64,000 nt of DNA. It comes from a phage. The notes beneath the pieces were generated by a model. The model was not told the DNA's origin, searched no databases, and saw nothing but the letters and a program-made list of their open reading frames with translations. The stretch lies in NCBI GenBank assembly GCA_018865545.1, contig GCA_018865545.1_3633.1. One strand, 5' to 3'. The position numbers were made by a program, and so were the translations under genes. Positions 34,610 through 59,489 of this stretch are shown in pieces (the stretch's first letter is position 1; each line of letters opens with the position of its first letter).

Positions 34610-36364
34610 TTATGGTTGTGGTCTACGGACAATAACAGTGTCGATAACCCCACCTTCAACACCATTAAAGGTTAATTGAAGGATGGTGACTGAATTTGCT
34701 GTTGTATTAACAGTTTCACTGTTAAGGACAACATAATTAGGATCCAGAGTCACACTGTGCCCACCTGTGGCATCCTGCGTCAGATAAATCATAGCGGAGA
34801 AAGGTTGCTGTGGATCAGGCCATGCTCCGATTGTCAGATTTTTATTTACTGTGACATTATAAATGTTGGATGTGCCGCTTGGTGTCCATGTTGCTGTCGG
34901 ATCGTCAACTTCTTCCGATTGTAAAGTTAGGAAACTTACATTGGTGGAAGAAAGTTGTGTCTGGCCGTTAACAAATAACTGATTTGTCGTTACACTGCTT
35001 TGAGCAGAAAGAGATGCTACGTTTACGTTTTGTCCTGTCAAATCAAACGTAATACCAGATACAGTCCCCTTAACAATCAGGTTGTTTACTGTTGTTGTGC
35101 CAGAAGATCTATTTAAAGTCACATCGCCATCAGATATTATCTTACCAAGGGTTGAAGTTCCGTTGACAGTTAGATCACCACCTACAGACCCGTCACCAGT
35201 CGCAGTGAATCCCTCCCCTAAAGTTAATAGCCCTGTGACATTACCAGTTGTAGAGGAGAAATCTTTGAGACTGGCTTGTCCATTAACAACAAGGTTGTTA
35301 GTAACTTCTAAGCTCTCACATGTTGTACTGTTGAGATTGGTGTTACCATTGACTTGTAAATCACCACCTACAGTAATCCCTTGTGCCGTTGTTACAGAAT
35401 TAGGCGAGATATCTTCCCCATTGACAGAAAAAGAAAGTCCTGTTACAGTACCTGTAATCTTTAAGTTTTCAAGTTCTGTTATCCCAGAAACTTTAAGACG
35501 AGCTTCAGAAGGGTCTTTTTTAGAGTTACCTGTAATGTAAACATAGTCGAAGGTATTATTACCAAGACCTGTGAAAGACATTGTTGTATTGTCTGCTACT
35601 GGCACACCGTTTATGATGATGTCTGTATGTAACTGATGTGTCTGCGCTGAGTATGCTTCAAGCCTTGTTTTTATAAACGTCGGGTTAGAATCATCACTGT
35701 AGGCAAAAGATAGACTTGAATTATCTTTTGTTAAGATAAGATTCTGGAATTTTCCTGTTTGATTTTCAGCATTAACAGGCCCATTAAATGTTGACACACC
35801 GCCAACAGAAAGCGTATTAAGACTCGCTAAACCTGTTACAGTAAGATCCGCGAATGTACCGTTGCCACCCGCAATTCCAGCCAAAGCAGTAGCAATAGCT
35901 CTAGTAACGAATTGTGTTGTTGCCAGAGTTGTACTGTTACTATCCGCTGATGGTGTTGGTGCTTGAGGGTTCCCTGTAAAAATAGGGCTGTCAATAGGCG
36001 CAAATAGCTGAGACATAGATTCTGAATCGTTGTATAATCTCCAGTTAACATTATTGACTGGATTAGGAGGTAGTGTTACAGGCGAACTCTCTGTCGCACC
36101 GGGTGCATACCACCATTGGACACCTCTTTCCCCTGTATAGGCATACAACTGATTAAATACCGTCGTCTGTTGTCCAGCAACCCACGGCAGTGGAGGTGTT
36201 TTAAAGAATAAATTGTCAAGAAATGCTTTTCTGACTGTAGGTATCAGACTGCCATCCTCTGTAACTACAGTTTCAGTAGCTGCCCCATTGACAACTTTAT
36301 GAAGGCGTTCAGAATCTTCTACAACCTGATCTACCGCCTGTTCAAATTTAGTCATGTCCGCCAC
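34610..36364 (-). CDS. tail fibre protein
   Basis: PIFTGNPQAPTP...TTQFV collar motif shared with 56066..57676 and 58239..59489; long Gly/Thr/Asn-rich repeat region. Confidence 0.55.
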   Translation of the reverse strand: MADMTKFEQAVDQVVEDSERLHKVVNGAATETVVTEDGSLIPTVRKAFLDNLFFKTPPLPWVAGQQTTVFNQLYAYTGERGVQWWYAPGATESSPVTLPPNPVNNVNWRLYNDSESMSQLFAPIDSPIFTGNPQAPTPSADSNSTTLATTQFVTRAIATALAGIAGGNGTFADLTVTGLASLNTLSVGGVSTFNGPVNAENQTGKFQNLILTKDNSSLSFAYSDDSNPTFIKTRLEAYSAQTHQLHTDIIINGVPVADNTTMSFTGLGNNTFDYVYITGNSKKDPSEARLKVSGITELENLKITGTVTGLSFSVNGEDISPNSVTTAQGITVGGDLQVNGNTNLNSTTCESLEVTNNLVVNGQASLKDFSSTTGNVTGLLTLGEGFTATGDGSVGGDLTVNGTSTLGKIISDGDVTLNRSSGTTTVNNLIVKGTVSGITFDLTGQNVNVASLSAQSSVTTNQLFVNGQTQLSSTNVSFLTLQSEEVDDPTATWTPSGTSNIYNVTVNKNLTIGAWPDPQQPFSAMIYLTQDATGGHSVTLDPNYVVLNSETVNTTANSVTILQLTFNGVEGGVIDTVIVRRPQP

Positions 36365-36374
36365 AAGAATCTCC

Positions 36375-36638
36375 TTATTGGTCTGACTCTTCCCTACGTT
36401 GTGCTTCTACACCCCAGCGTAGAGATATTAACTTACTTATTAACTGCGGGGCAGCTACTGTGGGGGCATACACCCACATATACCACTCCGTTAATGTGCC
36501 TTTGAAACCCCAATCCAAAAAAACTGCTGTCATTGCAGCTAATCCGATATTGCTCCAAAATTTTGTGTGGGAGGCTTTCTCTGGATTTACTGGGGATCTG
36601 ACAAGATCTTTTAAAAATTTCAATATTGATTTTATCAT
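36375..36638 (-). CDS. small membrane protein
   Basis: 87 aa with a central hydrophobic segment. Confidence 0.35.
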   Translation of the reverse strand: MIKSILKFLKDLVRSPVNPEKASHTKFWSNIGLAAMTAVFLDWGFKGTLTEWYMWVYAPTVAAPQLISKLISLRWGVEAQRREESDQ

Positions 36639-36653
36639 AATACATTAGAATCC

Positions 36654-37127
36654 TCAATAATTTACTCCAGGAACAATTCTGGCTATAATTATGAAACCAA
36701 CAACAACAGAAGTTTTAAACAATTCTTTTATTGTACCTGTTTTGTATGCAGCGCATAATAAAAGAACTTCCATAAATGTTGGATATGATGAATTTATCGT
36801 GAAGCCTAATGCGTTCGGTAAAATAAATGGGAACTGCATAATTAAAATTTGGCAAAACAAAACAGGTAGAGATAGTGCAAGCATTAGCTTTTTTCTCCAT
36901 CCTGTCAAAACACATGCAGTAAAGAAAATCAGAGATATATCCAAAAACCAACAAAAAGTTAGGTAGAGTGATAAATCAAATGCGTAGATATGGGAACTGA
37001 ACCACCAGTACAATATATTCTCTATCAGGATATGAACCATGCCAAGTACTGACATGGTTCGGATACCTTTATCATTATCAAGAAGTAGCACTGCAAAGCA
37101 TATAAAGTACAGTGCAGAACTTATCAT
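36654..37127 (-). CDS. multi-pass membrane protein
   Basis: 157 aa with several hydrophobic helices. Confidence 0.4.
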   Translation of the reverse strand: MISSALYFICFAVLLLDNDKGIRTMSVLGMVHILIENILYWWFSSHIYAFDLSLYLTFCWFLDISLIFFTACVLTGWRKKLMLALSLPVLFCQILIMQFPFILPNALGFTINSSYPTFMEVLLLCAAYKTGTIKELFKTSVVVGFIIIARIVPGVNY

Positions 37128-37438
37128 TTCATTTGGCTCTCTATAAGAATTTTAAGCTGGTCTATAAGATCAACTCTCAAACTGCTTACATCCTCTTTTA
37201 AGTCTTTTCTAAAATCTGAAACATCATCGCGGACAGCTTTCAGTTTTTTATCAAGAATCTCATCAAGTTTTTCTTTAGTGACCATTTCTGCCTTAATTCT
37301 TATGATGTCCCTATCAAGTTCATCAAGACGTTGTTGTGTCTTTTTATAGTCTGAGTATGTTAACTTCAGAACACCAACTAAGAAAAACGTCAATACGCCC
37401 CATACGGCTTTTAAGATAGCAAATAGGTCAATAGACAT
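37124..37438 (-). CDS. membrane-anchored coiled-coil protein
   Basis: N-terminal hydrophobic helix then charged coiled-coil (QQRLDELDRDIIRIKAEM). Confidence 0.4.
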   Translation of the reverse strand: MSIDLFAILKAVWGVLTFFLVGVLKLTYSDYKKTQQRLDELDRDIIRIKAEMVTKEKLDEILDKKLKAVRDDVSDFRKDLKEDVSSLRVDLIDQLKILIESQMK

Positions 37439-37450
37439 TCCTTAGCTCCT

Positions 37451-38035
37451 TTACTCAACTGACGGTCTTATAGCCCATGTTATGTTAGGAGCATCCTCAG
37501 TTTTAATGCTTAATACCTCACAACGATAAATCTTTAATTTCTTAAGAATATCTGCCATGTGCTCTGGTAGTTTTTTACCTGTTACCTGCTCATAGTCTTC
37601 ATATGTCTGAATATATTGACTTGCCCATGCAATTTCCTTATCCTTGTGAAGTTTTGCCTCTTGTATAGATCGGAAATAGGTATAAACAAATTTGCCATCT
37701 TTTAATGCCACGTCACCGAGGTCATACTCAATGCCTTTAGGCAAATTTTCTACCGGAACAACCGCTATTTTCCAGCCGCTGAAAGGAGTGCACCCATCAA
37801 AACCTTCATAGCAAACGCAGCAAACCCTATCGTCGAGATCCAGCGAAAGAAAAGCATATTTCCCCGGCTCTGTTTGGGATTTCAATTCTTCGGCTATTTC
37901 ATAATAGTCTTTCCCCGTAGATTCTTCATAGAAAAAAGGGGCGAAAGGGTTAGCTTCCAACAATCTTTTCGTAGCTCCTGTTGCATTATCAGGAAGTGGA
38001 GAATAAGGGAAAAATGGTCCAAATATTTTGTTCAT
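37451..38035 (-). CDS. hypothetical protein
   Basis: 194-aa ORF. Confidence 0.4.
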   Translation of the reverse strand: MNKIFGPFFPYSPLPDNATGATKRLLEANPFAPFFYEESTGKDYYEIAEELKSQTEPGKYAFLSLDLDDRVCCVCYEGFDGCTPFSGWKIAVVPVENLPKGIEYDLGDVALKDGKFVYTYFRSIQEAKLHKDKEIAWASQYIQTYEDYEQVTGKKLPEHMADILKKLKIYRCEVLSIKTEDAPNITWAIRPSVE

Positions 38036-38052
38036 GCAACTCTCCTGAATGA

Positions 38053-39147
38053 TTAAACTCTACTTACGTTGTGCCAGACACCATTTACTTGTTTCTGGAT
38101 ATACGCATAGTAAACCCCACCAATGTTGTCTGCTGAGTTTTTACCAACATCTTGAGGATAGATACCTGTCATAACTGCACCCGCTGGCGCTTGCCAGTTC
38201 CAAGATACTAGGTTACTACCAGGCCAGTACCATGTGTTACCTGTTAATCTAACATCTTGAACACCGCCAGTTTGGATATTAACATTGCCGTTACCATCCG
38301 CACCTACACCATTAACAGATCTTACGATATTTCTCCCAGCAACCGTAGCAGAGTTATTATTTACAATTAACGCATTTACGTTTGCTGTTCCATTAACTCT
38401 TGCAGATGGTGTTGTTAATGAGCTTGTTGCTACAACAGTCTGACCTTGAATTTGCCCTGTAGCCGTCAAAGAGGATGTTCTTGTTGTGGTGAATGTTGCA
38501 TTTGTGCCATTAACATTTGTTCCTTGTACAGTTCCTGTGGCAACAACATTTCCTGTTACTTTACACAAAGCCGCTGAGGAGCTAATAGCATTAAGCTCCA
38601 TCATAGTGAACATCCCAGAGTTACCTGAAGGAGAGAATCGGAAACGTATAGAATCTACACCGTTTGTCCCTGCTGTTCCCGGATTATCTCCAAGAACAAA
38701 ATCCCAGTACGTCCAGTCAGAAGCCGGATTTGTAGTTGTAATATACGCAGTATCTGTTTCAGAAGGTTGAAAATTCAATCTCGGCAATGACAAAGCTCCT
38801 GTCATTGTATCTCCCGTTACATTCACGTAACGGTTGTCGGCCTCTGATCTGCTCCACACATCAAGGTTGACTCTGGATGTTTCCTTGTCAGCTAAATCAG
38901 ACAGATTTTCACTTCTTCTTAAAAATCTTGTATCTAATTCAGGAATTTGATCCCCTGTAACATATTTTATCCAACTTGTCATCATATGAAGAACATAGTT
39001 AAATTCTTCACAAGCTGGTTTTTCTCCCATATCCCAACCTTTTAACCAAAGGTCGTCAATAGGTCTTATTTTATTCTCCCCGTGAGTATTAGGGAGAATT
39101 ACATCCCCCGCTGCCCAAATCTCGATTGGTATACTTGGTGTAGCCAT
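38053..39147 (-). CDS. tail fibre protein
   Basis: GDTMTGALSL fibre motif; Gly/Thr/Asn-rich repeats. Confidence 0.55.
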   Translation of the reverse strand: MATPSIPIEIWAAGDVILPNTHGENKIRPIDDLWLKGWDMGEKPACEEFNYVLHMMTSWIKYVTGDQIPELDTRFLRRSENLSDLADKETSRVNLDVWSRSEADNRYVNVTGDTMTGALSLPRLNFQPSETDTAYITTTNPASDWTYWDFVLGDNPGTAGTNGVDSIRFRFSPSGNSGMFTMMELNAISSSAALCKVTGNVVATGTVQGTNVNGTNATFTTTRTSSLTATGQIQGQTVVATSSLTTPSARVNGTANVNALIVNNNSATVAGRNIVRSVNGVGADGNGNVNIQTGGVQDVRLTGNTWYWPGSNLVSWNWQAPAGAVMTGIYPQDVGKNSADNIGGVYYAYIQKQVNGVWHNVSRV

Positions 39148-39162
39148 AAAAGTATCTCCTTC

Positions 39163-41226
39163 TTAAACTTCTGGTGGGGTATCTTTTAAATACCCTTTCA
39201 ATGCTGTATGCCCCATATGAAAGACTGCGGATTGAGAGTTGTGCACTGTTATAGAATCATGCATTACTTGTGGATACGCCCATATGTATTGATAAATACC
39301 TGGAAACTTAAACTCATTAAGAACGATGTTCCCTATAATCATTTTCCAAAGATATTCTCTATAATTAGAATTAGGGTCAAATCCGTATAATGGTGCTAGC
39401 CCTTCGTCTGGAACAAATCCTGCCAGATAATGTATCTTATCTTCTTTAAATTTTAAGACATCTCGCGGAATGGTGATGGCCTGGAATGATTTTTCCATTT
39501 TTCCTTGAAGTAACCAGTCATAGCACTCGGAGCAATAAAAATCAAAATTCTCAGGTGTATAACTACCACTAGGGAAATTTATCTTTTCCATAATACCATT
39601 ACCAATAATGGATGGTAAAAACGGTAAAAGTGTTATTTTTGCATTAGGATAAGATTTTTTAAGATCAGCACCGAATTTTACCACTCGCTCCCCTAAGCAC
39701 TGTCTTAGAAAATCTACATACTCATCATAGGGTGTTCCGGTCTTAAAGTCATAAATTGTTCCCATGTCTTGAGCATACAATCCAGTCTCTTCATTAAAAC
39801 GAACTTTTGTAGTATAATCATAGACACAAGGTAAGTTAGTAGCTGTATTATACCACCACCAAGGTTCTCCTATCTGAATGATAACAACTTGGTTAACTTG
39901 TTCGCACGTAGCTGCTATTTTATTTATCACACTTTGGATATATTGCATACCCTCATTAATATTAGGTGATAATACCCAACTAGGAGGTGTATAGCCTGTT
40001 TCAGCCAATGCATCATTCCAATCATGCTGCACCCATTCTGCCGGACATACAGTGCTCATCAACTCAAAACTAATAGAATTGATAACCTTATAACCATTTG
40101 CTCGTGTCAGTGCGAAATAGTTATTCATCCATTGTAGGGTTGCATTATTGACAGGGACATCTTTGTTCAGTTTCCATGCGGAGCTTTCCCAAGAGAACTC
40201 GTAATAATGCGACATACCATTATAGTGGTTTATCATATCCCTGTACCCAAGTTTCAAGCAGTTGTCCACCACTCGTTCAGGTGTCAGGTTATACATGTCA
40301 TCATAGGATGTACACATACGCACATCATGTGCAGGAATTGTCAAATTATTAACTCTCATCATTGTATAGCCTGTATCAGGCTCTTTAAGAGTTATTTTCA
40401 ACATAAGGTTCTGATTTTCTTTAGGGACAACATCTTCTCCTTCTGCATACTTCTCAGATATCATAGAAAAGAAAAACTGATCCACTTGAGAGGTATCCAC
40501 TGGCACGTTCACATCAGGGCCAGATTTTAAATTTGAAAAATCAAGTTTGATTGTGGCTCTTTTATAATCCTCGCTGATATTTTCAGCATAAGCGTACAGA
40601 GGGATATAATGGGTCGCCCCATCTAAAAGTTTAAGGGTTAATGTCGGGGTCAATTTCTCATTATTGAAATCAGGCATTCCGTCGCCCAACTCTATATCGA
40701 ACCACAGTTTAGCGTTTCGAAGATCTGCGTGATCTTGAAAAGAGATCCCTTTATGATCATACTTATCTTTTGTGCTCCAAATAACCCCTGCTAAACCGCT
40801 TACAGTTCTATTAGTCATATAAGCTGTAAGTATATTACCATTAGATATTATAGAGCAACTTTCTGTGGGTTGAGAATCAATTGTCCAATATTTAGGTAGA
40901 AACATTTTCTCTTCTTTTGTTCCCCACCCCAACTCAGACATATCCTCCTTGGTGCTAATAACACATCTGGAAGCCAGCCTGTCTAGCCTTGCACCAAAAG
41001 ACGGATTACTCATTTTTAAGGTAAATTCTCTTGGTAATGAGTTTTTAGGATGTTGTTTTATCTCCACAGGTATCTGTACAGACTTTTCCCCTTTAGGAAT
41101 TGTTGCCGTACCTACTTTGGGTGTATAATCTCTTCCAGCAATAGCTGTGTTTGATATTGTTTCATAGTCAAAGCTGACAGCTACAGAGTCATCTTCTCTT
41201 CTGGCTGTGAAAATAGCCTCTGCCAT
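39163..41226 (-). CDS. tail spike/fibre protein with N-terminal Calx-beta-like domain and large globular C-terminal domain
   Basis: VSFDYETISNTAIAGRDYTPKVGTATIPKGEKSVQIPV resembles a Calx-beta repeat; Trp/Tyr-rich C-terminal domain (IGEPWWWYN). Confidence 0.45.
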   Translation of the reverse strand: MAEAIFTARREDDSVAVSFDYETISNTAIAGRDYTPKVGTATIPKGEKSVQIPVEIKQHPKNSLPREFTLKMSNPSFGARLDRLASRCVISTKEDMSELGWGTKEEKMFLPKYWTIDSQPTESCSIISNGNILTAYMTNRTVSGLAGVIWSTKDKYDHKGISFQDHADLRNAKLWFDIELGDGMPDFNNEKLTPTLTLKLLDGATHYIPLYAYAENISEDYKRATIKLDFSNLKSGPDVNVPVDTSQVDQFFFSMISEKYAEGEDVVPKENQNLMLKITLKEPDTGYTMMRVNNLTIPAHDVRMCTSYDDMYNLTPERVVDNCLKLGYRDMINHYNGMSHYYEFSWESSAWKLNKDVPVNNATLQWMNNYFALTRANGYKVINSISFELMSTVCPAEWVQHDWNDALAETGYTPPSWVLSPNINEGMQYIQSVINKIAATCEQVNQVVIIQIGEPWWWYNTATNLPCVYDYTTKVRFNEETGLYAQDMGTIYDFKTGTPYDEYVDFLRQCLGERVVKFGADLKKSYPNAKITLLPFLPSIIGNGIMEKINFPSGSYTPENFDFYCSECYDWLLQGKMEKSFQAITIPRDVLKFKEDKIHYLAGFVPDEGLAPLYGFDPNSNYREYLWKMIIGNIVLNEFKFPGIYQYIWAYPQVMHDSITVHNSQSAVFHMGHTALKGYLKDTPPEV

Positions 41227-41238
41227 ATGTGGTCTCCT

Positions 41239-41916: not shown

Positions 41917-41926
41917 AATAACATCC

Positions 41927-47074: not shown

Positions 47075-48195
47075 TTATTGAGGGACAGCAAGAATAAGAT
47101 TAATGTTATCCATATTAGCTGTCTCTATTTGCTGATCAATCATATTCCGTAATTCTCCAGCATCTATTTTAATTGTTATTTCACCACTGACAGGCTCGGT
47201 AGGAATAACCATAGGAGCTACAATTTGACCCGCAGTAGATCCGCCCGGCATCAAATTATGGGATTGAAGATAGTTGGCTTTATCCTGCATATGCCCAGCC
47301 CAAAGCGATGTCCACCAACTACTTAACATCCCTCCGGTAACAGCCATTAAGTCACCACCACCAAATGAATAAGCATTTCCAAGATCTTGTTTTTTAGCGT
47401 TCTTTTCACTATCGTTGGAATTTACGTAGTCGTATCCCATAAGGGCAGCAGCAACGTAGGGATTTCGTATAGACCACCCTAGCAGCTTACCAAAAACCCC
47501 ACTTCGTTTCCCACCACCTTTCCTATCCCACGGTCCATTACCACCGCTATTACCTCCCCCAGATTTTGGTACGTCCGGCCCACCAAAAATTTCTTTAAGA
47601 ATTTTTAATGTTCCCGTTATTCCAGCAATTTTAGCCAAGATTCTGAATACTCTAACCAAGGAAGCTGCGAAGAATAGAGCACCGAGACCCCAACCTACCC
47701 AGTTAGTCGCTTTTTGGAATGTCTCACTTTTCTTTATCCATTGTGGGATATACATGTTTAATTCTGCATTTATAAAAATGCAGACATTAGATATCGTATG
47801 TGCGATATCCATAAAGCCCTTTATGAATCCAGAAGTAAATTGTCCAACTTTCTCAGCTAACGGTCCTTTAGCATCCAACATGTGGGACAAATCATTAAAC
47901 GTCTTAGTTAATTCATCCCCAAATCCACTTTCAAATATCTTATTTTGAAAGTTCATCCATGTTTGTTGTAAACGCTGCATAGCAACACGGTTGCTTTGTT
48001 GTGCCTTGGTAAGTGCACCACCTTTTCTTGCGGCCTCGGCATAATACTTAGCGACCAAAGGAAGAATTTTTGAAGCCTTTAGCTCCCCATTCTTCATCAT
48101 ATCCATTAATTTTGCAATGTCTATAGATGAATCATTGAATGCTTCTTGTGTGGCTTTAAGGAATACATCAAGGGAACCAGGGATGCCCTCGGCTA
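47075..48195 (-). CDS. tail tape measure protein, C-terminal part (putative exon 2)
   Basis: frame is open upstream of the first ATG (48106) to 48196, directly abutting the structured intron core; Gly-rich segment; 5' limit uncertain by a few nt. Confidence 0.5.
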
Positions 48196-49014
48196 CTTAT
48201 TGTCCCCTCAGTTCGCTACACTGAGGCGGTGTGCTAAAACACCCGCCACATGTTTCCATGTGGAACAGACTATATCTTCCTCTGATTTTACAGAGGCCAA
48301 CCATTTCGGAGCGGCTTCGCCCCTACTCTCCTACACTCATCGGAGATAGTCGTTGAGCACATAACTTAAAGATTTTTTAATAAACGTCGCCAAGCATTTT
48401 TATGTTTTATCCTGTGGATAGTTGATCTTGTTACACCAAACTCATTCATTAAAGATGTTGTATCCTCAAAACGCCTGTGGTAAATCCTAATAACTTGATC
48501 TTCTGTTAATTTGCAATTAGGATTTCTTTTTCCATCTACGGAGTTTAGACCTTTTGAGAAAGCATGTTTTTGGTTCTGCGACCTAGTAACATACTCCAGA
48601 TTATCTTTGTGGTTGTTGGCCTTATTACCATCTTTATGGTTAACTTCCATTTTTGGATGTGGCGGTTCACCAATGAATGTTAATGCGACTATCCTGTGTA
48701 CAAGATACAATACACACTTTCCGTCTACCCTAAAGTAAACTCTTTTATATCCATTGTGTATTGTTTGCTCAGTTAGTTTCTTCCATGTACCTCTTTTTGT
48801 TGAAAAGATTGCACCATCTTCTCGACAAAAGTACCCGTTATGTCCAGGCACGGGTCTAATCTCTAAGTTACTTCGCTGCGGATTGTCCATTGTTACATCT
48901 CCAAACTTTTTACTATACCTGAGATAGTTATTCTCAGCCATTATTATGTTACCATAATAATTTAGTATTTGGTAGCTTTAGGAGTTCCCCGCAATTAGAT
49001 TGGTTTTACAACAG
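48196..49014 (-). mobile_element. group I intron (IA-like) with HNH ORF; minimum extent, 5' splice site unresolved
   Basis: minus-strand RNA carries R-like CAACGACUA (48347-48355), S-like GAAGAUAUAGUCUG (48266-48279), GNRA-capped P9-like hairpin, P-like AAUUGCGGGG (48987-48996); GC-rich stem-dense segment 48200-48360. Confidence 0.6.
48366..48941 (-). CDS. intron-encoded HNH homing endonuclease
   Basis: NUMOD4-like N-terminus; HNH motif EVNHKDGNKANNHKDNLEY; C-terminal HTH-like region. Confidence 0.7.
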   Translation of the reverse strand: MAENNYLRYSKKFGDVTMDNPQRSNLEIRPVPGHNGYFCREDGAIFSTKRGTWKKLTEQTIHNGYKRVYFRVDGKCVLYLVHRIVALTFIGEPPHPKMEVNHKDGNKANNHKDNLEYVTRSQNQKHAFSKGLNSVDGKRNPNCKLTEDQVIRIYHRRFEDTTSLMNEFGVTRSTIHRIKHKNAWRRLLKNL

Positions 49015-50325
49015 CTAGTATGTCAACTGTTGTTTTAATTCTTCAGCCATGATCTGACCTTTACCCATCATTTGTTGGATAGCGGTAATACCACGCTGGA
49101 ATTTTACAGGATCAACCTGAAGTGCAGTAGCATATTCTGAGAAACCTTTGAACAGTTCGTCATTTTGCGCCTTGCTCAAAACACCTTTGGCAGATATGGA
49201 CATTTGGGTATAACCTTGGGCGGCGGTTTTTAAATCCAAACCCAATCTGTAAGATTGCTCCCGAACAAACTGTATTCTTTTCGCTGCTTCTTCTGAGTCA
49301 TCAGAAACCATTAACATGGTAGCTTCCATGCCTTGAAAGAATTGTCCTGTTTTCACAACACTTGCGGCAGCATTAAAAGCTCCGTATGCAGCAGAAACAC
49401 TAATTAATGTGCTACGAAGGTTTTTCAATCCTTGATCAAGAGATAGTGTATTTGCCTTAGCTTTGCGGAGTCCTGTTTCCATTGCTGCCAATTCAGCACG
49501 GAAATTAGAAGCTCTCATAGTCTGGCTTTGCATAAATCTCTTTTCCAGATCATCATAACCTTTAATTTTAGACCTGAAATCATCACCATACTTAGCACGA
49601 AGTCTTACAGCAGCATTAGCAATTGTTGATTGTTTTGCAGCCTTTATCCTTTCTGCTCTTAACGCTTCTCTTTCTTTCTTCTTATTAGCATCTTTTTCTG
49701 CCTTAATCTCATCCGCTGTTTTTTCTTTCGGAATAGATTTATGATAGCGTTCCATAGCAGAGTTCTGGGCAGCCACAAGACTTGGATCGTGACGACTATT
49801 AGGATCCCCAACAATACCAGAGGCAGACCCTGAAGACTTTCTTGCTGCAAGTTCTTGCTGCAATCTTGCTTGACGGGCAGCAGATATTTCTGGATTTGTT
49901 CCATATCCAGAACCTGTTTTTTCCATCTGCTTCAACTTTGATTTTAATGCATTATATTCTTTTTGTTCTTCAGGTGTTCTTCTGTTTGTTAGTCTGGCTA
50001 CTGCTTGCTTTCTTCTCGCGCTCTCAACTTTGGCTATTTGTTCACGAGCACGAGCTTCCTTTTTTGCCATTGCAATAGCATGTGCCGTAGATTTTGCTTG
50101 CTCTGCACGTTCAGTTTGGTGTAATCTTTTAGCTACAAGACGAGCCTCTTGCGCAGAACGTTTATAAATTGCTGCCGGATTACTTTTATTAGAAGTGAAA
50201 GCTCTGTTAGTCTTTTCCCATTCCTTCTTCAGGGATTTTATAGCTTTCATTGCACGACCGTAACTGGTGCGATCTACAGACCACTCGACAGCATTTACGG
50301 TTTTAGTTACTATGATATTCGCCAT
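49015..50325 (-). CDS. tail tape measure protein, N-terminal part (putative exon 1)
   Basis: Ala/Lys/Glu/Arg-rich coiled-coil; directly downstream of the frameshifted chaperone pair; the last 20-30 codons may be intron-encoded. Confidence 0.5.
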   Translation of the reverse strand: MANIIVTKTVNAVEWSVDRTSYGRAMKAIKSLKKEWEKTNRAFTSNKSNPAAIYKRSAQEARLVAKRLHQTERAEQAKSTAHAIAMAKKEARAREQIAKVESARRKQAVARLTNRRTPEEQKEYNALKSKLKQMEKTGSGYGTNPEISAARQARLQQELAARKSSGSASGIVGDPNSRHDPSLVAAQNSAMERYHKSIPKEKTADEIKAEKDANKKKEREALRAERIKAAKQSTIANAAVRLRAKYGDDFRSKIKGYDDLEKRFMQSQTMRASNFRAELAAMETGLRKAKANTLSLDQGLKNLRSTLISVSAAYGAFNAAASVVKTGQFFQGMEATMLMVSDDSEEAAKRIQFVREQSYRLGLDLKTAAQGYTQMSISAKGVLSKAQNDELFKGFSEYATALQVDPVKFQRGITAIQQMMGKGQIMAEELKQQLTY

Positions 50326-51671: not shown

Positions 51672-51674
51672 TTA

Positions 51675-54178: not shown

Positions 54179-54181
54179 AAT

Positions 54182-54658
54182 TTACGCCCCTGAACCTCTT
54201 CTGTTCGAAATTTTATAAGTTGTGGAATCTCTTAAATCCCCATAATGATACATAGCTGCGCTAAAACCTTTGACATCTGCCCATGCATCTGATACAGTAT
54301 TATGAGGGAAAAGACCAGAGTCTATTACAAACTTAATTTTTTCAGCACCTGCTTTACCAATTTTTTTCAGCATTGGGGTTGGATTATTACTTCCAGATGC
54401 TAACGTGCCGAATAACTCCTTCTGTAATTTCTCCAAATCCTTTTGAAAGGACACAGCCGCGCTAGTTATGAATGTACGGGCTGGAAGATTATTCCAGCCT
54501 TGTTCATGGATAGCTGCCAGAGTTGCAGTATTTAGTCCTGAATAGTGTGGGTCATCATAATAACCATAGGAGACTTGTTTTTTATCAAGTTGCTGTACAG
54601 AGTTATAAAAATTCTCCAAAGCACTTAAATCTTGATGAGATTTAAATTTTGTTCTCAT
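54182..54658 (-). CDS. head-tail connector protein
   Basis: position. Confidence 0.3.
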   Translation of the reverse strand: MRTKFKSHQDLSALENFYNSVQQLDKKQVSYGYYDDPHYSGLNTATLAAIHEQGWNNLPARTFITSAAVSFQKDLEKLQKELFGTLASGSNNPTPMLKKIGKAGAEKIKFVIDSGLFPHNTVSDAWADVKGFSAAMYHYGDLRDSTTYKISNRRGSGA

Positions 54659-54723
54659 AAGAACTCCCGTTAAGGTATTTTACCACATTATCCAAGCAAA
54701 ATCAATAATTAGGAATACGATTG

Positions 54724-55242
54724 TCAATAATACCTGTGTTTTGGGTATCTCCGAGGAATACCGGGAACTCCTGTTTGAGGAACTATACCGGAAACATCAA
54801 ACGGGCTTCTTGAGTTAGGATTACTCTTAACACGCCAAAACTCATCCTGTCGCACACCGCCCACAATAACCAAACCAGAGACACCATTCAGGCAGCTATT
54901 GACGTAATCAGGGTTTTGCAGTAGCCAGTCCAGAAAATCTTTCCAGTTCTGATAGGAAGATCCACCTTTTACCTGTATCGTCTCATCACCTATCTTTTCC
55001 AATCTTTCTGTGATGGATGCCTCGCCAGAATTTATCTCTTGAAGAATTAACCATCTTAATACAGCCACCATTGTGTTATAGACCACTTTCCACATGTCGC
55101 AAGGCGTGGATGATGGGTTAGGCCAGTTTGCTCTTTTTTTCTCTATCTCAAGGAATGCCATGATAACTTCATCAGGTAGTGCCTCTGGGGATATTGACCC
55201 AAGCAGGAGCCTGATGTAATCAACAATTTCTTGGTCTGTCAT
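54724..55242 (-). CDS. head completion protein
   Basis: position. Confidence 0.3.
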   Translation of the reverse strand: MTDQEIVDYIRLLLGSISPEALPDEVIMAFLEIEKKRANWPNPSSTPCDMWKVVYNTMVAVLRWLILQEINSGEASITERLEKIGDETIQVKGGSSYQNWKDFLDWLLQNPDYVNSCLNGVSGLVIVGGVRQDEFWRVKSNPNSRSPFDVSGIVPQTGVPGIPRRYPKHRYY

Positions 55243-55314
55243 CTAACTCTCCATTTTATGTTACTTGTCAGTAACTATATTATCACAAAATACAATTTTT
55301 GTCATTAAAAACGC

Positions 55315-55342
55315 TTGACACGAAAAATTCCGTAGGTAAGAT
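55315..55342 (+). promoter_or_regulatory. candidate sigma70 promoter for the secreted-protein gene
   Basis: TTGACA (55315-55320), 16-nt spacer, TAAGAT (55337-55342); GGAGG before ATG 55370. Confidence 0.4.
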
Positions 55343-55369
55343 AAACACAACAATTGCTATGGAGGATTT

Positions 55370-55774
55370 ATGAAAAATATTTTAAAAATTACAATTGGTC
55401 TGTGCGTCTGTGCTGTTATTGCAGCGGGAACTCTCCAATATGTGAAAAAGAACCCAGATATTAATGATTATAAATCTGTCGAGGCAAGTTGGTTGTCGCC
55501 AGAAGAAAAAGATGAGGCAATTAGCCGTATTGTACAATTATCTTGCGATAAGAGATTCAGAGAAGCATTTAAACCAGGCGTTATTGTTGTGTCATCAGGT
55601 TTCGAGGGTAGGATAGCAGAACAGGCGGAAGCATATCAATATTTTGATGATGTCGCAATTATCTCAGGAAAACAATCTTACACTGGAAAATACATCTGCA
55701 CTTTTTACAAAGATGGGCGGGAAGTGTATATTAATGCAAACTTGGATAAAGGAGTGCAAGGAATCCTAAAATAA
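55370..55774 (+). CDS. secreted/periplasmic protein (moron-like accessory gene)
   Basis: N-terminal signal peptide MKNILKITIGLCVCAVIAAGT; opposite strand to surrounding structural genes; own promoter and terminator. Confidence 0.55.
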   Translation: MKNILKITIGLCVCAVIAAGTLQYVKKNPDINDYKSVEASWLSPEEKDEAISRIVQLSCDKRFREAFKPGVIVVSSGFEGRIAEQAEAYQYFDDVAIISGKQSYTGKYICTFYKDGREVYINANLDKGVQGILK

Positions 55775-55796
55775 AAGACCCCGAAGGGTCTTTTTA
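55771..55796. terminator. bidirectional rho-independent terminator
   Basis: AAAAGACCC-CGAA-GGGTCTTTT between convergent genes. Confidence 0.6.
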
Positions 55797-56054
55797 TCAC
55801 GACATAATACCAGCGGCTTTCAATTTGGCAAGCAAAGCATTAAAATCGTTGACCAACGTAGAGACATCTGAAGCCACAGAATCTGCTTGTGTTTGTGCTT
55901 TCTTAACACCTCCTAATACTGATTCCGTAGCCGCTGGAAGAACATAGCTATCTGAGCCTCCAGCAACAATATCTTCGATTTTCACAGATTTTCCAGTTTT
56001 TATATCAATAAGGCTTGATGCATATACTTTACCTGCTACGCCATTTGTTGCCAT
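55797..56054 (-). CDS. fibre-related small protein
   Basis: N-terminus MATNGVAGKVYASSLIDIKTGK resembles the N-terminus of 58239..59489. Confidence 0.4.
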   Translation of the reverse strand: MATNGVAGKVYASSLIDIKTGKSVKIEDIVAGGSDSYVLPAATESVLGGVKKAQTQADSVASDVSTLVNDFNALLAKLKAAGIMS

Positions 56055-56065
56055 ATTTTCTCCTT

Positions 56066-57676
56066 TTAACTTGTGTAACTATATTGAACAACATAGTTAA
56101 ATTCATGTGAGGCTTCATCAGCACCTGCTTCGGGTATTACTCCAGCTAACCCAGAATTACCAGCCCCACGAAGAAGTTTCTTGATTTCCTTTGTCTCAGG
56201 GTCGATGGTATGCGTGGGAACTGTTGGTAGAATAAGCCATACAGCCACTGTAGGTTTCTCTGATCCGACAACCTTGGGGTATTCTGCATAGATATCGTAA
56301 TCAAGATATGTACCATCTTCCATACAAGGTAGTTCTCTCAAGCGAACATCTGTAATAACATTTGTGCTGCCAGCAGGCGCGCTATACAGGGTGACTGTTG
56401 TTTTCAAATATATAGAAGACCCAGACCTCCCTACCGCTTTATCAGCCGAAGGTGTATCTCTATAATTGAAAGAAAAATTCCCAGATGTTGCTGACAACCT
56501 CATAGACGGCTGAGGGGAAAATGGGATATTAAAGCTCGCTTGTTGACTTGAATCATCTGTCATTGTAAAAGTTAGTGTAACCTGTTGTGCGTTATCAACT
56601 TCTTTCACAACAGCATTAACAGATTTTATTGTTTGACCATCAGGTGCTTTTGGTATTCCCAAATTTAAGACCTGTGATGGTGATTGACCAGTTATTTCAA
56701 TAGTAGGTTGTGATCCACTATCTAAAACAGTAACTGTGCCAGCAGACAGTGTGTAAGCATTATCAGAGATCTGCTTTTTAACAAATTCTACGTTGGCAAT
56801 CTGGGTTCCTATTGCTGAGTCACTTGGTGTCGGGCTTTGTGGTGTACCAGTGAACACAGGGCCATCAAGATCTGCCTTAAGGGAGATAAGACGTTTTAGT
56901 CCTTCAACATCAACCTTCAGGTTTTCCCATCCGATGAGATAACCACTACCAGTTGTATGATAACGGTTGTACCAAAAATCCCCGTTAACACCGAAAAAGA
57001 ATATCCCTTTCTCTTCGTATTGTGGACCAGAACTGTTCCGTGATGTACTAATATATTTTATTTCGATAAGTCCGTTGAATACCACTCCTGGAATTATTTT
57101 ATCTTCCCCTGCCAATTGTGATACTTGGTAAACCCCTGGTGTTGCTGCTCTAACCCATGTTAAGAACTCTGATGTTCCAGAGTTGCCACTAAAATTTTTT
57201 GTACTAGTGAGTATTGCTCCAAAACCAAACGCACCAGGTATAGCGGCAACACCTTCTGTACGATCATAAAGCCATTCTTGTACTTTAGTAGGTGCAACAT
57301 ACAACCCCTCTTCACCTTCAGAAGTTAGATTTGTTAAAGTATTTCCTTCTTTAGGAGATATAGGGATATTTATTTCGGGCGCTGTTACATATAATGCCCC
57401 TTGTTTCAACTCCAACAGGTTATTTGCAGCAGGGCTAACCTTAACAGCTAACCCATTATCTCCAGCTTGGAGAGCATTATTTTCATCTTCTGCCACCACA
57501 ACAACACCTTTAAGTGGTGTTGCTTTTTCACCATTACCTGAAAGTTTTATGGTCGCGGTGTCTTCTGTGTATAATTTAAAAGATTGGCTTGGGAGTCCTG
57601 ATCCTCCAATACTATGCCCATCTGGAAGTATGACTTCAGCATTGACAACTTTATCCTTATAATCCATAACTACCAC
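56066..57676 (-). CDS. tail fibre protein
   Basis: PVFTGTPQSPTPSDSAIGTQIANVEFV collar motif; C-terminal PGAFGFGA block shared with 58239..59489. Confidence 0.5.
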   Translation of the reverse strand: MVVMDYKDKVVNAEVILPDGHSIGGSGLPSQSFKLYTEDTATIKLSGNGEKATPLKGVVVVAEDENNALQAGDNGLAVKVSPAANNLLELKQGALYVTAPEINIPISPKEGNTLTNLTSEGEEGLYVAPTKVQEWLYDRTEGVAAIPGAFGFGAILTSTKNFSGNSGTSEFLTWVRAATPGVYQVSQLAGEDKIIPGVVFNGLIEIKYISTSRNSSGPQYEEKGIFFFGVNGDFWYNRYHTTGSGYLIGWENLKVDVEGLKRLISLKADLDGPVFTGTPQSPTPSDSAIGTQIANVEFVKKQISDNAYTLSAGTVTVLDSGSQPTIEITGQSPSQVLNLGIPKAPDGQTIKSVNAVVKEVDNAQQVTLTFTMTDDSSQQASFNIPFSPQPSMRLSATSGNFSFNYRDTPSADKAVGRSGSSIYLKTTVTLYSAPAGSTNVITDVRLRELPCMEDGTYLDYDIYAEYPKVVGSEKPTVAVWLILPTVPTHTIDPETKEIKKLLRGAGNSGLAGVIPEAGADEASHEFNYVVQYSYTS

Positions 57677-58242
57677 CCAATTTTTATCCTTTGTAATTCC
57701 TCAACCGTAGAGGCTGAAAGCACTTGATCTTTCATTTCTCGTTGCTTGATGTATATTGAATCATTCTTAGTTGCCAACTCGGAAGACATAGCCACAACAA
57801 GATTTTCAAATTCAGAGTTACTCATCTCTACAGGTTTGTTATCAACATCTCTCCAAACCACAGCTTGTCTAGCCGAGGATGCTTTTTGTGCTAATAATAC
57901 TGGATAAATACGACCAAGGGTTGCATTATTGACATCATACCTTGCACCATTATAAGAAACAATAGCTGTAGAGCTTTCTTCCAGTTTTCTCCACTCTTTT
58001 ATTTCTGATAACATCTGTTGCTTTAATGCCTCGATAAATTGAGGGTTTACTACATACGGGGCAATCTCCCCAAAATTACCAGATTGTAAGGAATCCCAAA
58101 CTGCCTTTCCTGTTTCGCTACAGTCGTTGCTGGAAGCGGTGTATGGGAGATAATCAGAGAAACCCTCAAAAAGGACGAGGCAATCAACGTCACCATTAAG
58201 AAGATACTGTGGAGACTTGATAGCTTTAATATCTAGCATCAT
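57670..58242 (-). CDS. tail fibre assembly/accessory protein
   Basis: 190 aa between two fibre genes. Confidence 0.3.
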   Translation of the reverse strand: MMLDIKAIKSPQYLLNGDVDCLVLFEGFSDYLPYTASSNDCSETGKAVWDSLQSGNFGEIAPYVVNPQFIEALKQQMLSEIKEWRKLEESSTAIVSYNGARYDVNNATLGRIYPVLLAQKASSARQAVVWRDVDNKPVEMSNSEFENLVVAMSSELATKNDSIYIKQREMKDQVLSASTVEELQRIKIGW

Positions 58243-59489
58243 GCAATCCTCATAAAAAGGCCAATATAACCTGTATCAGTACCATTTCTATTGCTTGGTG
58301 AACCGGATAAGGCTATAAACGTACCTCTCTGTGTTTCAGTACTGTGTGTAACAGAAACTGGTGTACTTTGATATGCACCTGTTGCGGAAACATTGCTATA
58401 AAGCGTTATACACCCTATGCGGGAACCTGGGATAGTCTGACCACGAACAAGTTTTCTGTTTGAATCACTATCCGACTCGCCAAGATACACTCCTAACATT
58501 ATTCCTCCAACATCAGGACTCCCCCAAGAATTGCCTACCGTAGACTGCAAAGAAGAGAATTGCCCTTTTATATTCACCCAGTCACCATTGGCAAAAATAG
58601 TCAGTAAGCGATAAAGGTACAACTCCCCATTTATGCCATAAAAATAGGCATGTTTACTATTTTTTGCTGCCTGCTCTGCATTCTCTGCTGGATATGGTGA
58701 CAATACCTCAACCATACCTCTAAAAGTGATCCCTTCAATAATACGTGTACCACCTGAAGGTAAATCTTGGCGAACAAGGTAACGACCAGGTTGTGCACTT
58801 CTCAACCAAGAAACCCATTCCTCTGGCCCATTCTTCTCTTGAAAAACAACTTCTTTCTCGGCAGGGATAAACGCCCCAAAACCAAATGCCCCTGGTAAAG
58901 ATACTACCCCATCGGTGGCATCATAGATATCGTTTTGTACATCTTTTGTAGCGGCGGTTTTTATCCCCAGATAATCAAGAACCCCAGTTTTTGAGTCTTG
59001 CCCTATAATAACTCGACCAACAGCGGAGAGATTTGCCAAAGCCATTACGTTTTTGTCACTGAAATAAGCTAGTTTATTTCCAGCAGTAATCAATCCTGAC
59101 AAAGATGTCAGTATTTCACTCAATGGTTGTTTACCCGCAAGCGCGTTAGTCATGGTGGTCGCAAAGTTAGGGTCATCACCTAATGCCTTCGCCAATTCAT
59201 TGAGAGTATCTAATGTTTCAGGCGCTGAGTCAGCCAATTTTGCAATTAAACCCCTCACATATTCTACATTAGCTATTTCCTTTCCAATAGCATCATCCAA
59301 CGGTGTTGGTGCTTGAGGGTTCCCTGTAAATGAAGGGCTTTCTATTGGGGCTTTAGATGCAATAAGATCTGTTATATCTTCTGGAATATTCCCGCCACCC
59401 AGTTCATCAAAATTTATTTTCTTTCCTGTCTTCTGGTCAACCAATGCACGACCATAAATTAAACCACCAACACCTGTTGTTGCTGTCAT
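58239..59489 (-). CDS. tail fibre protein
   Basis: PSFTGNPQAPTPLDDAIGKEIANVEYV motif; PGAFGFGA block. Confidence 0.5.
   Translation of the reverse strand: MTATTGVGGLIYGRALVDQKTGKKINFDELGGGNIPEDITDLIASKAPIESPSFTGNPQAPTPLDDAIGKEIANVEYVRGLIAKLADSAPETLDTLNELAKALGDDPNFATTMTNALAGKQPLSEILTSLSGLITAGNKLAYFSDKNVMALANLSAVGRVIIGQDSKTGVLDYLGIKTAATKDVQNDIYDATDGVVSLPGAFGFGAFIPAEKEVVFQEKNGPEEWVSWLRSAQPGRYLVRQDLPSGGTRIIEGITFRGMVEVLSPYPAENAEQAAKNSKHAYFYGINGELYLYRLLTIFANGDWVNIKGQFSSLQSTVGNSWGSPDVGGIMLGVYLGESDSDSNRKLVRGQTIPGSRIGCITLYSNVSATGAYQSTPVSVTHSTETQRGTFIALSGSPSNRNGTDTGYIGLFMRIA

What the first reader, a model, noticed from the sequence alone, without database searches (positions are those of the whole stretch)
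34610..59489. Three dispersed tail-fibre genes share a collar motif and two share a C-terminal block
ORFs at 34610-36364, 56066-57676 and 58239-59489 all contain a (P)xFTGxPQxPTP...(T/N)xxF/YV motif. The last two also share a PGAFGFGA block. The N-terminus of 55797-56054 resembles that of 58239-59489. This points to modular shuffling of fibre domains and possibly several receptor specificities.
Basis: seen in the sequence. Interest (0 to 1): 0.45.

Follow-up and report, generated by a model that had tools for sequence, protein, structure and literature searches.

The report
Mosaic fibre genes swapping motif-bounded cassettes
Three fibre genes of an rV5-like E. coli phage really do share short conserved motifs, and comparison with relatives shows these motifs are the seams at which fibre modules are exchanged: a clear new example of a long-known way phages vary their host-binding fibres.

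Summary
The motif F-T-G-x-P-x-x-P-T occurs exactly three times in the six-frame translation, once in each named ORF. G-A-F-G-F-G occurs twice. Shuffled sequence gives about zero of either. All pairwise similarities are significant (E from 7e-22 to 6e-7). One correction: the shared block is not C-terminal in both genes. It lies before the collar in the 536-aa ORF and after it in the 416-aa ORF.

The window is an Avunavirus (Vequintavirinae), a relative of phage Av-05. ORF1 is the homolog of the phiTE long tail fibre, which docks on the baseplate. ORF3 plus a DUF4376 gene is a prophage-type side-tail-fibre cassette behind a lineage-specific 33-aa anchor. ORF2 is a mosaic of at least four sources.

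Modular shuffling is directly supported. Nucleotide similarity to Av-05 and to a metagenomic relative breaks off at the GAFGFG and collar codons. ORF2 alleles carry one or two blocks, with or without a collar. Three natural single-gene fusions of ORF3 and ORF2 have their junctions at these motifs.

The mechanism is a known kind. Receptor specificities and the virion attachment sites of ORF2 and ORF3 remain untested.

The parts
34610..36364 (-). ORF1, 584 aa: long tail fibre, homolog of the phiTE LTF that docks on the baseplate wedge and sheath initiator
   Evidence: phmmer vs PDB 9cuy chain g, E=2.8e-86, aligned over residues 8-578. phrog_4549, E=2e-223. The phiTE paper PMC11972413 describes the LTF structure. 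96.7% nt identity to Av-05 gene Av05_00105.
35885..36001 (-). ORF1 collar/joint motif (residues ~122-160; core FTGNPQAPT at 35954-35980)
   Evidence: Regex hit. [quoted passage not shown]
59391..59489 (-). ORF3 N-terminal anchor (~33 aa), shared with the 85-aa ORF
   Evidence: BLASTP E=6e-7. The same anchor is joined to six different distal architectures in relatives.
59115..59381 (-). ORF3 collar motif plus LDTLNELAKAL motif (C-L unit; residues ~37-125; core at 59304-59330)
   Evidence: ~50% identity to lambdoid Stf (HK629), P2 and P1-like SJ46 fibres. Residues 55-148 match PDB 9d93 'Tail collar fibers, gp4', E=5e-12.
58599..58967 (-). ORF3 GAFGFG block (B; residues ~175-297; GAFGFG at 58875-58892)
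   Evidence: BLASTP vs the ORF2 block, E=7e-22. The AF2 model is confident from about residue 205 on, with a beta-alpha-beta4 pattern.
58239..58598 (-). ORF3 C-terminal tip domain (residues ~298-416), probable receptor-binding end
57670..58242 (-). DUF4376 protein, 190 aa: probable cognate assembly chaperone or tip partner of ORF3
   Evidence: PF14301, E=3.4e-11. phrog_1141. A DUF4376 gene also directly follows the homologous Salmonella prophage fibre. It is absent where the ORF3-type tip is absent.
57293..57667 (-). ORF2 N-terminal anchor (~125 aa)
   Evidence: ~50% identity to the N-terminus of Seunavirus fibre genes that sit beside the major capsid gene, e.g. PVP-SE1 gene 69. 84-99% conserved among 18 alleles.
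56927..57292 (-). ORF2 GAFGFG block (B; GAFGFG at 57218-57235): the hypervariable cassette
   Evidence: Only 27-53% identity among 18 alleles. No nucleotide similarity to Av-05 or 19-1-2 here. 71% aa identity to jumbo phage Goslar and 70-76% to P2-like E. coli prophage fibres. AF2 pLDDT ~85.
56765..56905 (-). ORF2 collar/joint motif (residues ~258-304; core at 56828-56854)
   Evidence: It is the boundary of nucleotide similarity to Av-05 and to the L004 chimera. It is absent from the 19-1-2 allele.
56066..56764 (-). ORF2 post-collar conserved region and C-terminal domain
   Evidence: 85-98% conserved for residues 281-400 and 61-77% beyond. Residues 386-534 are 33% identical to a protein of Serratia jumbo phage PCH45. 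This half is retained in all three natural fusions.
55797..56054 (-). 85-aa mini-fibre: ORF3-type anchor plus a phi29-type head-fibre C-terminal domain
   Evidence: PF11133, E=3e-17, matching profile positions 212-277 only. PDB matches to phi29 6qvk/3qc7, crAss001 7qof and 9d82 'B2 Dec Gp45'. Conserved in Av-05, 19-1-2, L004, L007 and Seunavirus.

Best explanation
The window comes from an Avunavirus, an rV5-like virulent myovirus of E. coli. It encodes several trimeric fibres.

The shared motif SPxFTGxPxxPTP...ANxEFV is a short structural joint. It forms a turn of triple beta-helix that leads into a helical bundle, and it recurs in many enterobacterial phage fibres. The GAFGFG block is a compact alpha+beta knob of about 120 aa. 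It is used one to three times per fibre in a narrow group of enterobacterial phage and prophage fibres.

Both motifs are conserved and sit at domain boundaries, so they act as seams. Recombination between fibre genes, within the lineage and with other phages and prophages, exchanges, duplicates or deletes the segments between them while keeping the trimer in register.

The resulting proteins:
- ORF1 is the baseplate long tail fibre.
- ORF3 is a prophage-type side-fibre distal part, with its DUF4376 partner gene, behind a lineage-specific 33-aa anchor.
- ORF2 has its own anchor, a hypervariable block, a collar and a separate C-terminal domain.

Shown: the homologies, the breakpoints, the copy-number variation and the natural fusions. 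Inferred: that recombination is guided by the motifs rather than merely tolerated there by selection, that the variable parts bind receptors, and that the fibres differ in specificity.
For: Identity of the phage: 91-97% nt identity to Av-05 and 92-94% to 18-1-2 and 19-1-2.

Motif statistics and pairwise E-values.

ORF1: it equals the phiTE LTF, and its motif lies inside the solved part.

Breakpoints:
- Window vs Av-05: similarity is lost in 56855-57224.
- Window vs 19-1-2: similarity is lost in 56697-57224.
- L004 chimera: 98% identical to the window down to 58875, the last base of ORF3's GAFGFG codons. Similarity resumes at 56855, one base before ORF2's FTG codons.

Allele architectures: B, BC, BB and BBC.

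Variability among 18 alleles: anchor 0.84-0.99 identity, block body 0.27-0.53, post-collar region 0.85-0.98.

Fusions: P0009 (CLBC), P0115 (CLCLC) and P0140 (C) join the ORF3 anchor to ORF2's C-terminal half. In contigs L004 and L007 one gene stands where the window has three.

Census of 158 homologs: CLB 72, BCLB 16, BC 16, B 15, CLCLCLCL 5, CLBB 4, BBC 4 and others.

ORF3 and prophages: the distal part is 40-53% identical to prophage fibres that carry PF08400 or PF12571 N-termini. The fibre-plus-DUF4376 pairing is conserved in a Salmonella prophage. Parts of ORF3 match prophage fibre genes in 2048 of 5426 complete E. coli genomes.

Block: confidently folded in both AF2 models with the same secondary-structure pattern. 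The family is narrow, with 87 clusters among 1.84 billion representatives.

Literature: RBP modularity and domain exchange (PMC12143355), and multiple fibre sets in Vequintavirinae (PMC8594841, PMC11370258).
Against: - Breakpoints at conserved motifs can arise without motif-guided recombination. Similarity necessarily resumes where sequence is conserved, and selection removes recombinants that break a domain.
- Within the window the two GAFGFG regions share only an 11-nt exact run, which is short for homologous recombination.
- No close nucleotide-level donor of ORF2's cassette exists among 5426 complete E. coli genomes. The exchange with prophages is therefore old, or the donor is unsampled.
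- The three fusions come from metagenomic assemblies. They were found in several samples or contigs, but none has been experimentally verified.
- No receptor or host-range data exist for this phage.
- There is no evidence of exchange at ORF1's collar; there the motif is simply a conserved structural element.
Confidence: 0.8

Rival explanations
1. The shared motifs reflect only common descent and structural constraint on trimeric fibres. There is no ongoing exchange. The three genes are old paralogs that keep the same joint and knob because the fold requires them.
For: The motif is ancient and widespread. It occurs in P2, lambdoid, P1-like and even mycobacteriophage proteins. ORF1 and ORF3 are 94-97% conserved among Avunavirus relatives, with no sign of exchange. 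Nucleotide identity between the window's own block copies is low.
Against: ORF2 alleles that are otherwise 85-99% identical differ wholesale in the block body (27-53% identity) and in block number and collar presence. Single-gene fusions exist in relatives. ORF2's block-plus-collar is 71% identical to a jumbo phage fibre, while its flanks have no counterpart in that phage.
Confidence: 0.1
2. The capsid-proximal genes (ORF3, ORF2 and the 85-aa ORF) are not baseplate tail fibres. They are neck- or capsid-attached fibres, or fibres that hang on another fibre. In that reading, side-tail-fibre receptor-binding modules are displayed away from the baseplate, possibly for a first reversible contact with the cell.
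For: - The genes lie between the major capsid / Inh_N genes and the head-tail adaptor gene.
- The C-terminal domain of the 85-aa protein matches capsid-attached proteins: the phi29 head fibre, the crAss001 head fibre and 'B2 Dec Gp45'.
- It shares its N-terminal anchor with ORF3.
- ORF3's L region matches a protein deposited as 'Tail collar fibers'.
- The two baseplate docking sites defined in phiTE are taken by the homologs at 38053-39147 and by ORF1.
Against: - The part of the 85-aa protein that matches head fibres is their distal tip, not their capsid-binding base.
- ORF3's distal part and its DUF4376 partner are bona fide prophage side-tail-fibre components.
- The phiTE paper reports no collar or whiskers. 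It mentions a third putative fibre candidate that it hypothesises the LTF contacts.
- Vequintavirinae are known for several lateral tail fibre sets (PMC8594841).
Confidence: 0.3
3. The 85-aa ORF and ORF2's extra modules are decaying remnants of duplicated fibre genes, not functional parts.
For: The 85-aa ORF is very short. Av-05's ORF2 homolog is split into ORFs of 545 and 115 aa. The gene downstream of ORF1 is truncated in the window.
Against: The 85-aa gene is intact and conserved in every relative examined and in Seunavirus and Klebsiella phages at 53-95% identity. It combines two recognisable domains. ORF2 is intact in the window and in 18 alleles.
Confidence: 0.05

Closest known systems
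Long tail fibre of Pectobacterium phage phiTE (PDB 9CUY chain g; Vequintavirinae, Certrevirus)
   Same: ORF1 aligns over nearly its full length (E=2.8e-86). This includes the N-terminal helical bundle, the globular domain and the collar motif region that is solved in phiTE, followed by beta-helical repeats.
   Different: ORF1 has 584 aa against 793, so fewer beta-helix repeats. Its C-terminal ~110 aa match a different PHROG, phrog_15437. The host and probably the receptor differ; phiTE is flagellotropic.
Side tail fibres of lambdoid, Mu-like and P2-like enterobacterial prophages (Stf / gpH type; Pfam PF08400 or PF12571 N-termini with PF03406 repeats)
   Same: ORF3 residues ~34-416 have the same collar, LDTL motif, block and tip order at 40-53% identity. 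They are followed by the same kind of DUF4376 gene. ORF2's block-plus-collar is 70-76% identical to P2-like prophage fibres.
   Different: ORF2 and ORF3 lack the PF08400 and PF12571 attachment domains and carry lineage-specific anchors. They are encoded in the head module of a virulent myovirus, not after the baseplate genes.
Motif-bounded recombination in tail fibre genes (T-even gp37/gp38 His-box exchange; P1/Mu/p15B/P2 fibre mosaics)
   Same: Conserved short motifs flank variable segments and coincide with exchange junctions. This comparison rests on my own knowledge of Tetart et al. 1998, Sandmeier 1994 and Haggard-Ljungquist et al. 1992, and is in line with PMC12143355 and PMC3945230.
   Different: The motifs here are the FTGxPxxPT joint and GAFGFG. 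The most variable cassette is an internal knob rather than the distal tip. No invertase-driven switching is involved.
phi29 head fibre gp8.5 (Pfam PF11133; PDB 3QC7, 6QVK) and crAss001 head fibre proteins (7QOF)
   Same: The C-terminal ~50 aa of the 85-aa ORF are about 45-55% identical to the head fibre tip.
   Different: The capsid-binding base and the helix-turn-helix stalk are missing. The N-terminus is instead the anchor shared with ORF3.
Multi-fibre adsorption apparatus of Vequintavirinae (rV5, phi92 'Swiss army knife')
   Same: Several different fibres are encoded together, including an N4 gp64-like protein (39163-41226) and a short tail fibre with a Mu/lambda-type chaperone. See PMC8594841.
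   Different: Avunavirus has a smaller set. Two of its fibres are encoded next to the capsid gene rather than in the large lateral fibre locus.

Membership tests
Vequintavirinae long tail fibre (phiTE LTF / phrog_4549), for ORF1 | N-terminal baseplate-binding region homologous to phiTE LTF residues 14-171 | tested here: met
   phmmer E=2.8e-86; ORF1 8-469 aligns to chain residues 16-498. phrog_4549, E=2e-223.
Vequintavirinae long tail fibre (phiTE LTF / phrog_4549), for ORF1 | Physical attachment to baseplate wedge 2A and the sheath initiator | not testable with these tools
   Known only from the phiTE cryo-EM structure. Inferred here from homology.
Prophage side tail fibre, lambdoid type (PF08400 phage_tail_N), for ORF3 and ORF2 | PF08400 N-terminal domain | tested here: not met
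   The Pfam scan of ORF2 and ORF3 gave no family at E<=0.01. Homologs such as P0032 do have it at residues 1-134.
P2 gpH-type fibre (PF12571 Phage_tail_fib), for ORF3 and ORF2 | PF12571 N-terminal domain | tested here: not met
   No hit. Present in homologs P0012 and P0143.
Prophage side tail fibre distal module (collar, LDTL motif, block, tip), for ORF3 | Same module order, with full-length similarity of the distal part | tested here: met
   40-53% identity over 91% of ORF3 in dozens of prophage fibres. 72 of 158 homologs have the CLB order.
Prophage side tail fibre distal module, for ORF3 | Cognate downstream DUF4376 gene | tested here: met
   PF14301 in the window and directly after the Salmonella prophage homolog.
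Pfam Collar (PF07484, T4 gp12-type tail collar domain), for the 'collar motif' | Match to PF07484 | tested here: not met
No hit in any of the three ORFs.
Pfam Phage_fiber_2 (PF03406 phage tail fibre repeat), for the 'collar motif' | Match to PF03406 over the motif | tested here: not met
   No hit in the window's ORFs. In homologs PF03406 lies upstream of the collar: P0074 215-254 with the collar at 260, and P0143 151-182 with the collar at 331.
phi29-type head fibre (PF11133), for the 85-aa ORF | C-terminal tip domain | tested here: met
   PF11133 E=3e-17 over profile positions 212-277. PDB 6qvk E=9e-10 and 3qc7 E=5e-9.
phi29-type head fibre (PF11133), for the 85-aa ORF | N-terminal capsid-binding base and helix-turn-helix stalk (profile positions 1-211) | tested here: not met
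   Only 66 of 277 profile positions are matched; the protein has 85 aa.
Tail fibre assembly chaperone (Caudo_TAP PF02413), for the DUF4376 protein | Match to PF02413 | tested here: not met
   Only PF14301 DUF4376 is matched. The separate gene 37451-38035 does match PF02413. The chaperone role of the DUF4376 protein is inferred from synteny alone.
Invertase-driven fibre switching (Mu G / P1 C segment type) | Long inverted repeats flanking alternative fibre 3' ends, plus an invertase gene | tested here: not met
   No inverted repeat longer than 30 nt (73% complementary) in 55700-59600. All the fibre genes are on one strand. An invertase was not searched for across the whole window.

The most novel reading that the evidence does not exclude
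The capsid-proximal cluster (ORF3 with its DUF4376 gene, ORF2 and the 85-aa protein) encodes fibres that dock on the neck or capsid, or on another fibre, through a dedicated 33-aa anchor. That anchor is shared with a phi29-type head-fibre tip protein. A virulent myovirus would then display interchangeable prophage-derived receptor-binding modules away from its baseplate. The internal GAFGFG knob, rather than the tip, would be the main specificity cassette.
Probability: 0.3. Interest if true: 0.6.

Novelty: new member of a known kind. Interest (0 to 1): 0.35.

Why it matters
Fibre mosaicism largely decides phage host range and is the basis of host-range engineering. This locus provides a well-delimited natural example: two short conserved seams, a hypervariable ~120-aa cassette between them, and natural fusions showing which junctions give viable fibres. 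That amounts to a ready design rule for swapping modules in Avunavirus and related coliphages. It also flags an uncurated fibre domain with no Pfam model. It leaves a testable question: where on the virion are fibres encoded beside the capsid gene attached?

Tried and rejected
- The word-indexed protein search with the block alone found nothing. The exhaustive profile search was needed instead.
- The ORF2 AF2 model was poor overall (mean pLDDT 44.6) and usable only for the block. Monomer prediction cannot fold the trimeric shaft.
- ORF2 and the DUF4376 protein have no sequence relatives in the PDB.
- I could not identify the source phage of PDB 9d93 and 9d82. The Bas63 and Douge papers are not it.
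- The PVP-SE1 proteomics paper is not held, so I could not check whether the Seunavirus homolog of ORF2 is a virion protein.
- I looked for a recent prophage donor of ORF2's cassette in 5426 E. coli genomes. The only match was 96 nt at 78% identity.
- An invertible-segment mechanism was considered and rejected. There are no suitable inverted repeats, and all the genes are on one strand.
- A diversity-generating retroelement was considered unlikely, because alleles differ by whole-segment replacement. The window was not scanned for a reverse transcriptase.


Full report
**1. What the window is**

The region is part of the structural module of a virulent myovirus of the genus Avunavirus (Vequintavirinae, rV5-like).
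- Window 55000-61500 is 92% identical over 92% of its length to Escherichia phages 18-1-2, 19-1-2, 24-2-1 and TH18, and 91% identical to Av-05.
- Window 34544-36700 is 96.7% identical to Av-05.
- Gene order on the minus strand, read in the direction of transcription, is: major capsid protein (60158-61171, PF03864), a Phage_Inh_N-type protein (59517-60026), ORF3, a DUF4376 gene, ORF2, an 85-aa ORF, adaptor, neck, sheath, tube, tape measure, baseplate, further fibres, and ORF1.

**2. Check of the observation**

The collar pattern F[TS]G.P..PT occurs exactly three times in the six-frame translation, at 35954-35980, 56828-56854 and 59304-59330. Each site lies in one of the named ORFs. Fifty shuffles gave no occurrence. 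GAFGFG occurs twice, at 57218-57235 and 58875-58892.

| Comparison | Result |
|---|---|
| ORF2 vs ORF3, block | 37% identity over 123 aa, E=7e-22 |
| ORF2 vs ORF3, collar | 53% over 47 aa, E=5e-12 |
| ORF1 vs ORF3, collar region | E=5e-9 |
| ORF1 vs ORF2, collar region | E=3e-10 |
| 85-aa ORF vs ORF3 N-terminus | E=6e-7 |

In ORF2 the block (residues 124-241) precedes the collar (258-304). In ORF3 the collar (37-83) precedes the block (175-297). The block is therefore not C-terminal in both proteins, and the module order is permuted.

**3. What each gene is**

*ORF1 (34610-36364).* It is the homolog of the long tail fibre of phage phiTE (PDB 9CUY chain g, E=2.8e-86). In phiTE, residues 14-171 were modelled. 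[quoted passage not shown] ORF1's collar motif aligns to phiTE residues ~131-169, within the last of these elements. This gives the motif a structural meaning: a joint between a beta-helical turn and a helical bundle (inference from the alignment and the paper's description).

*ORF3 (58239-59489).* It has a 33-aa N-terminus specific to this lineage. From residue ~34 to the end it matches prophage side tail fibres of Salmonella, E. coli, Citrobacter and Yersinia at 40-53% identity over 91% of its length. Those prophage proteins carry PF08400 (lambdoid) or PF12571 (P2-like) N-termini, which ORF3 lacks. The gene after ORF3 encodes a DUF4376 protein. The same pairing is found in a Salmonella Mu-like prophage. 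Where the ORF3-type tip is missing, the DUF4376 gene is missing too. This suggests a cognate chaperone or tip partner (inference from synteny).

*ORF2 (56066-57667).* It is a mosaic:
- Residues 3-129 are ~50% identical to Seunavirus fibre genes, which also sit beside the capsid gene.
- Residues 136-304 (block plus collar) are 71% identical to a fibre of jumbo phage Goslar and 70-76% identical to P2-like E. coli prophage fibres.
- Residues 386-534 resemble a protein of Serratia jumbo phage PCH45.

*The 85-aa ORF (55797-56054).* It combines the ORF3-type anchor with the C-terminal tip domain of phi29-type head fibres. PF11133 gives E=3e-17 over profile positions 212-277 only. PDB matches are 6qvk, 3qc7, 7qof and 9d82. 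It is conserved in all relatives examined.

*Other fibre-type genes without the motifs:*
- 38053-39147 is a short tail fibre whose N-terminus matches the phiTE STF (E=7.5e-35). Its Caudo_TAP chaperone gene is 37451-38035.
- 39163-41226 is an N4 gp64-like protein.
- 33960-34592 is a truncated tail protein.

**4. Evidence that the motifs are seams of exchange**

(a) *Similarity breakpoints.* blastn of the window against Av-05 loses similarity in 56855-57224, and against 19-1-2 in 56697-57224. One edge falls inside the GAFGFG codons. For Av-05, the other edge falls at the first base of the collar's FTG codons.

(b) *Module content of alleles.* ORF2 alleles differ as follows:

| Source | Order after the anchor |
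|---|---|
| Window | B-C |
| Av-05 | B-B-C |
| 19-1-2 | B-B, no collar |
| 16 further metagenomic alleles | B, BC or BBC |

(c) *Variability profile.* Across 18 alleles the anchor is 84-99% identical to the window, the block body only 27-53%, the post-collar region 85-98% and the C-terminal domain 61-77%. The hypervariable cassette is thus the internal knob between the two motifs.

(d) *Natural fusions.*
- P0009 (587 aa) is nearly identical to ORF3 up to PGAFGFG. It then has an unrelated block and continues as ORF2 from the collar on.
- At the DNA level its contig (L004) is 98% identical to the window down to 58875, the last base of ORF3's GAFGFG codons. Similarity resumes at 56855, one base before ORF2's FTG codons.
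- In that contig, and in a second one (L007, P0115), a single gene stands where the window has ORF3, the DUF4376 gene and ORF2.
- P0140 joins the ORF3 anchor to ORF2's post-collar half directly at the collar.

(e) *One anchor, many distal parts.* The same 33-aa anchor is found on six distal architectures.

(f) *Combinatorial use elsewhere.* In 158 collected homologs the three modules occur as CLB (72), BCLB (16), BC (16), B (15), CLCLCLCL (5), CLBB (4), BBC (4), CLBC, BBCLB and others.

**5. What the block is**

**6. Limits**

- Breakpoints at conserved motifs do not prove that the motifs guide recombination. Similarity must resume where sequence is conserved, and selection removes recombinants that break a domain.
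- Nucleotide identity between the window's two GAFGFG regions is short, with an 11-nt exact run.
- ORF2's cassette has no close nucleotide donor among 5426 complete E. coli genomes. By contrast, parts of ORF3 match prophage fibres in 2048 of those genomes.
- Receptor specificity was not testable.
- Where ORF2, ORF3 and the 85-aa protein attach is open. Their position in the head module, the head-fibre-type domain, the shared anchor, and the occupation of the two phiTE-defined baseplate sites by other homologs point away from the baseplate wedge. The prophage side-fibre ancestry and the phiTE paper's mention of a third putative fibre candidate point the other way.

**7. Comparison with what is known, and verdict**

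Mosaic tail fibres, with exchange between conserved motifs, have been known since the 1990s for T-even, P1, Mu, P2 and lambdoid phages (my own knowledge). They are documented at scale in recent work (PMC12143355, PMC3945230). Vequintavirinae are known for multiple fibre sets (PMC8594841, PMC11370258).

The finding is a real and well-delimited new example, not a new kind of system. Interest is moderate.

Noticed in passing
window 48193-49032 (ORF 48366-48941, minus strand): The tape-measure gene carries an 840-bp insertion relative to Av-05. It contains a 191-aa HNH_3 endonuclease ORF (PF13392, E=2.2e-13). Rfam group I intron matches below the gathering score lie at 48246-48461 (32.3 bits, E=1.1e-5) and 48835-48999. 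This is probably a group I intron with a homing endonuclease splitting the gene.
   Followed up: partly
window 33727-34592: The 210-aa ORF downstream of ORF1 is a truncated version of Av-05's 647-aa 'tail protein' (Av05_00106). About 1.4 kb of the Av-05 gene is replaced by 270 bp here, so this phage lacks the distal two-thirds of that protein.
   Followed up: partly
window 35952-35980 and 59302-59330: ORF1 and ORF3 share an exact 29-nt run across the collar codons, with all ten codons identical, although they lie 23 kb apart and have dissimilar flanks. The chance is about 8e-5 given the window's codon usage. The same 29-mer is present in the Av-05 ORF1 homolog and the 19-1-2 ORF3 homolog; Av-05's ORF3 homolog has two synonymous changes.
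   Followed up: partly
L001 5062-7030 (Av-05 genes Av05_0078 and Av05_0079): In Av-05 the ORF2 homolog is annotated as two overlapping ORFs of 545 and 115 aa. Together they match the window's single ORF2. This is either a frameshift or a sequencing error in the Av-05 record.
   Followed up: partly
window 39163-41226: The 687-aa protein combines Calx-beta, NCTSP_N and the TIM barrel of the N4 non-contractile sheath / gp64 type (PDB 9lc0 Gp64, E=3e-33). It corresponds to the ECA-targeting deacetylase-like lateral fibre that the BASEL paper discusses for Vequintavirinae (PMC8594841).
   Followed up: partly
window 55370-55774 (plus strand): A 134-aa gene on the opposite strand sits between the 85-aa fibre gene and the adaptor gene. 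It is conserved in all relatives. Annotations call it a membrane protein (phrog_11434) or, in one record, an adenosine deaminase. Its function and its reason for being there are unknown.
   Followed up: no
window 47466-47894: A stretch of ~430 bp inside the tape-measure region has no blastn similarity to Av-05, although both flanks are 93-95% identical.
   Followed up: no
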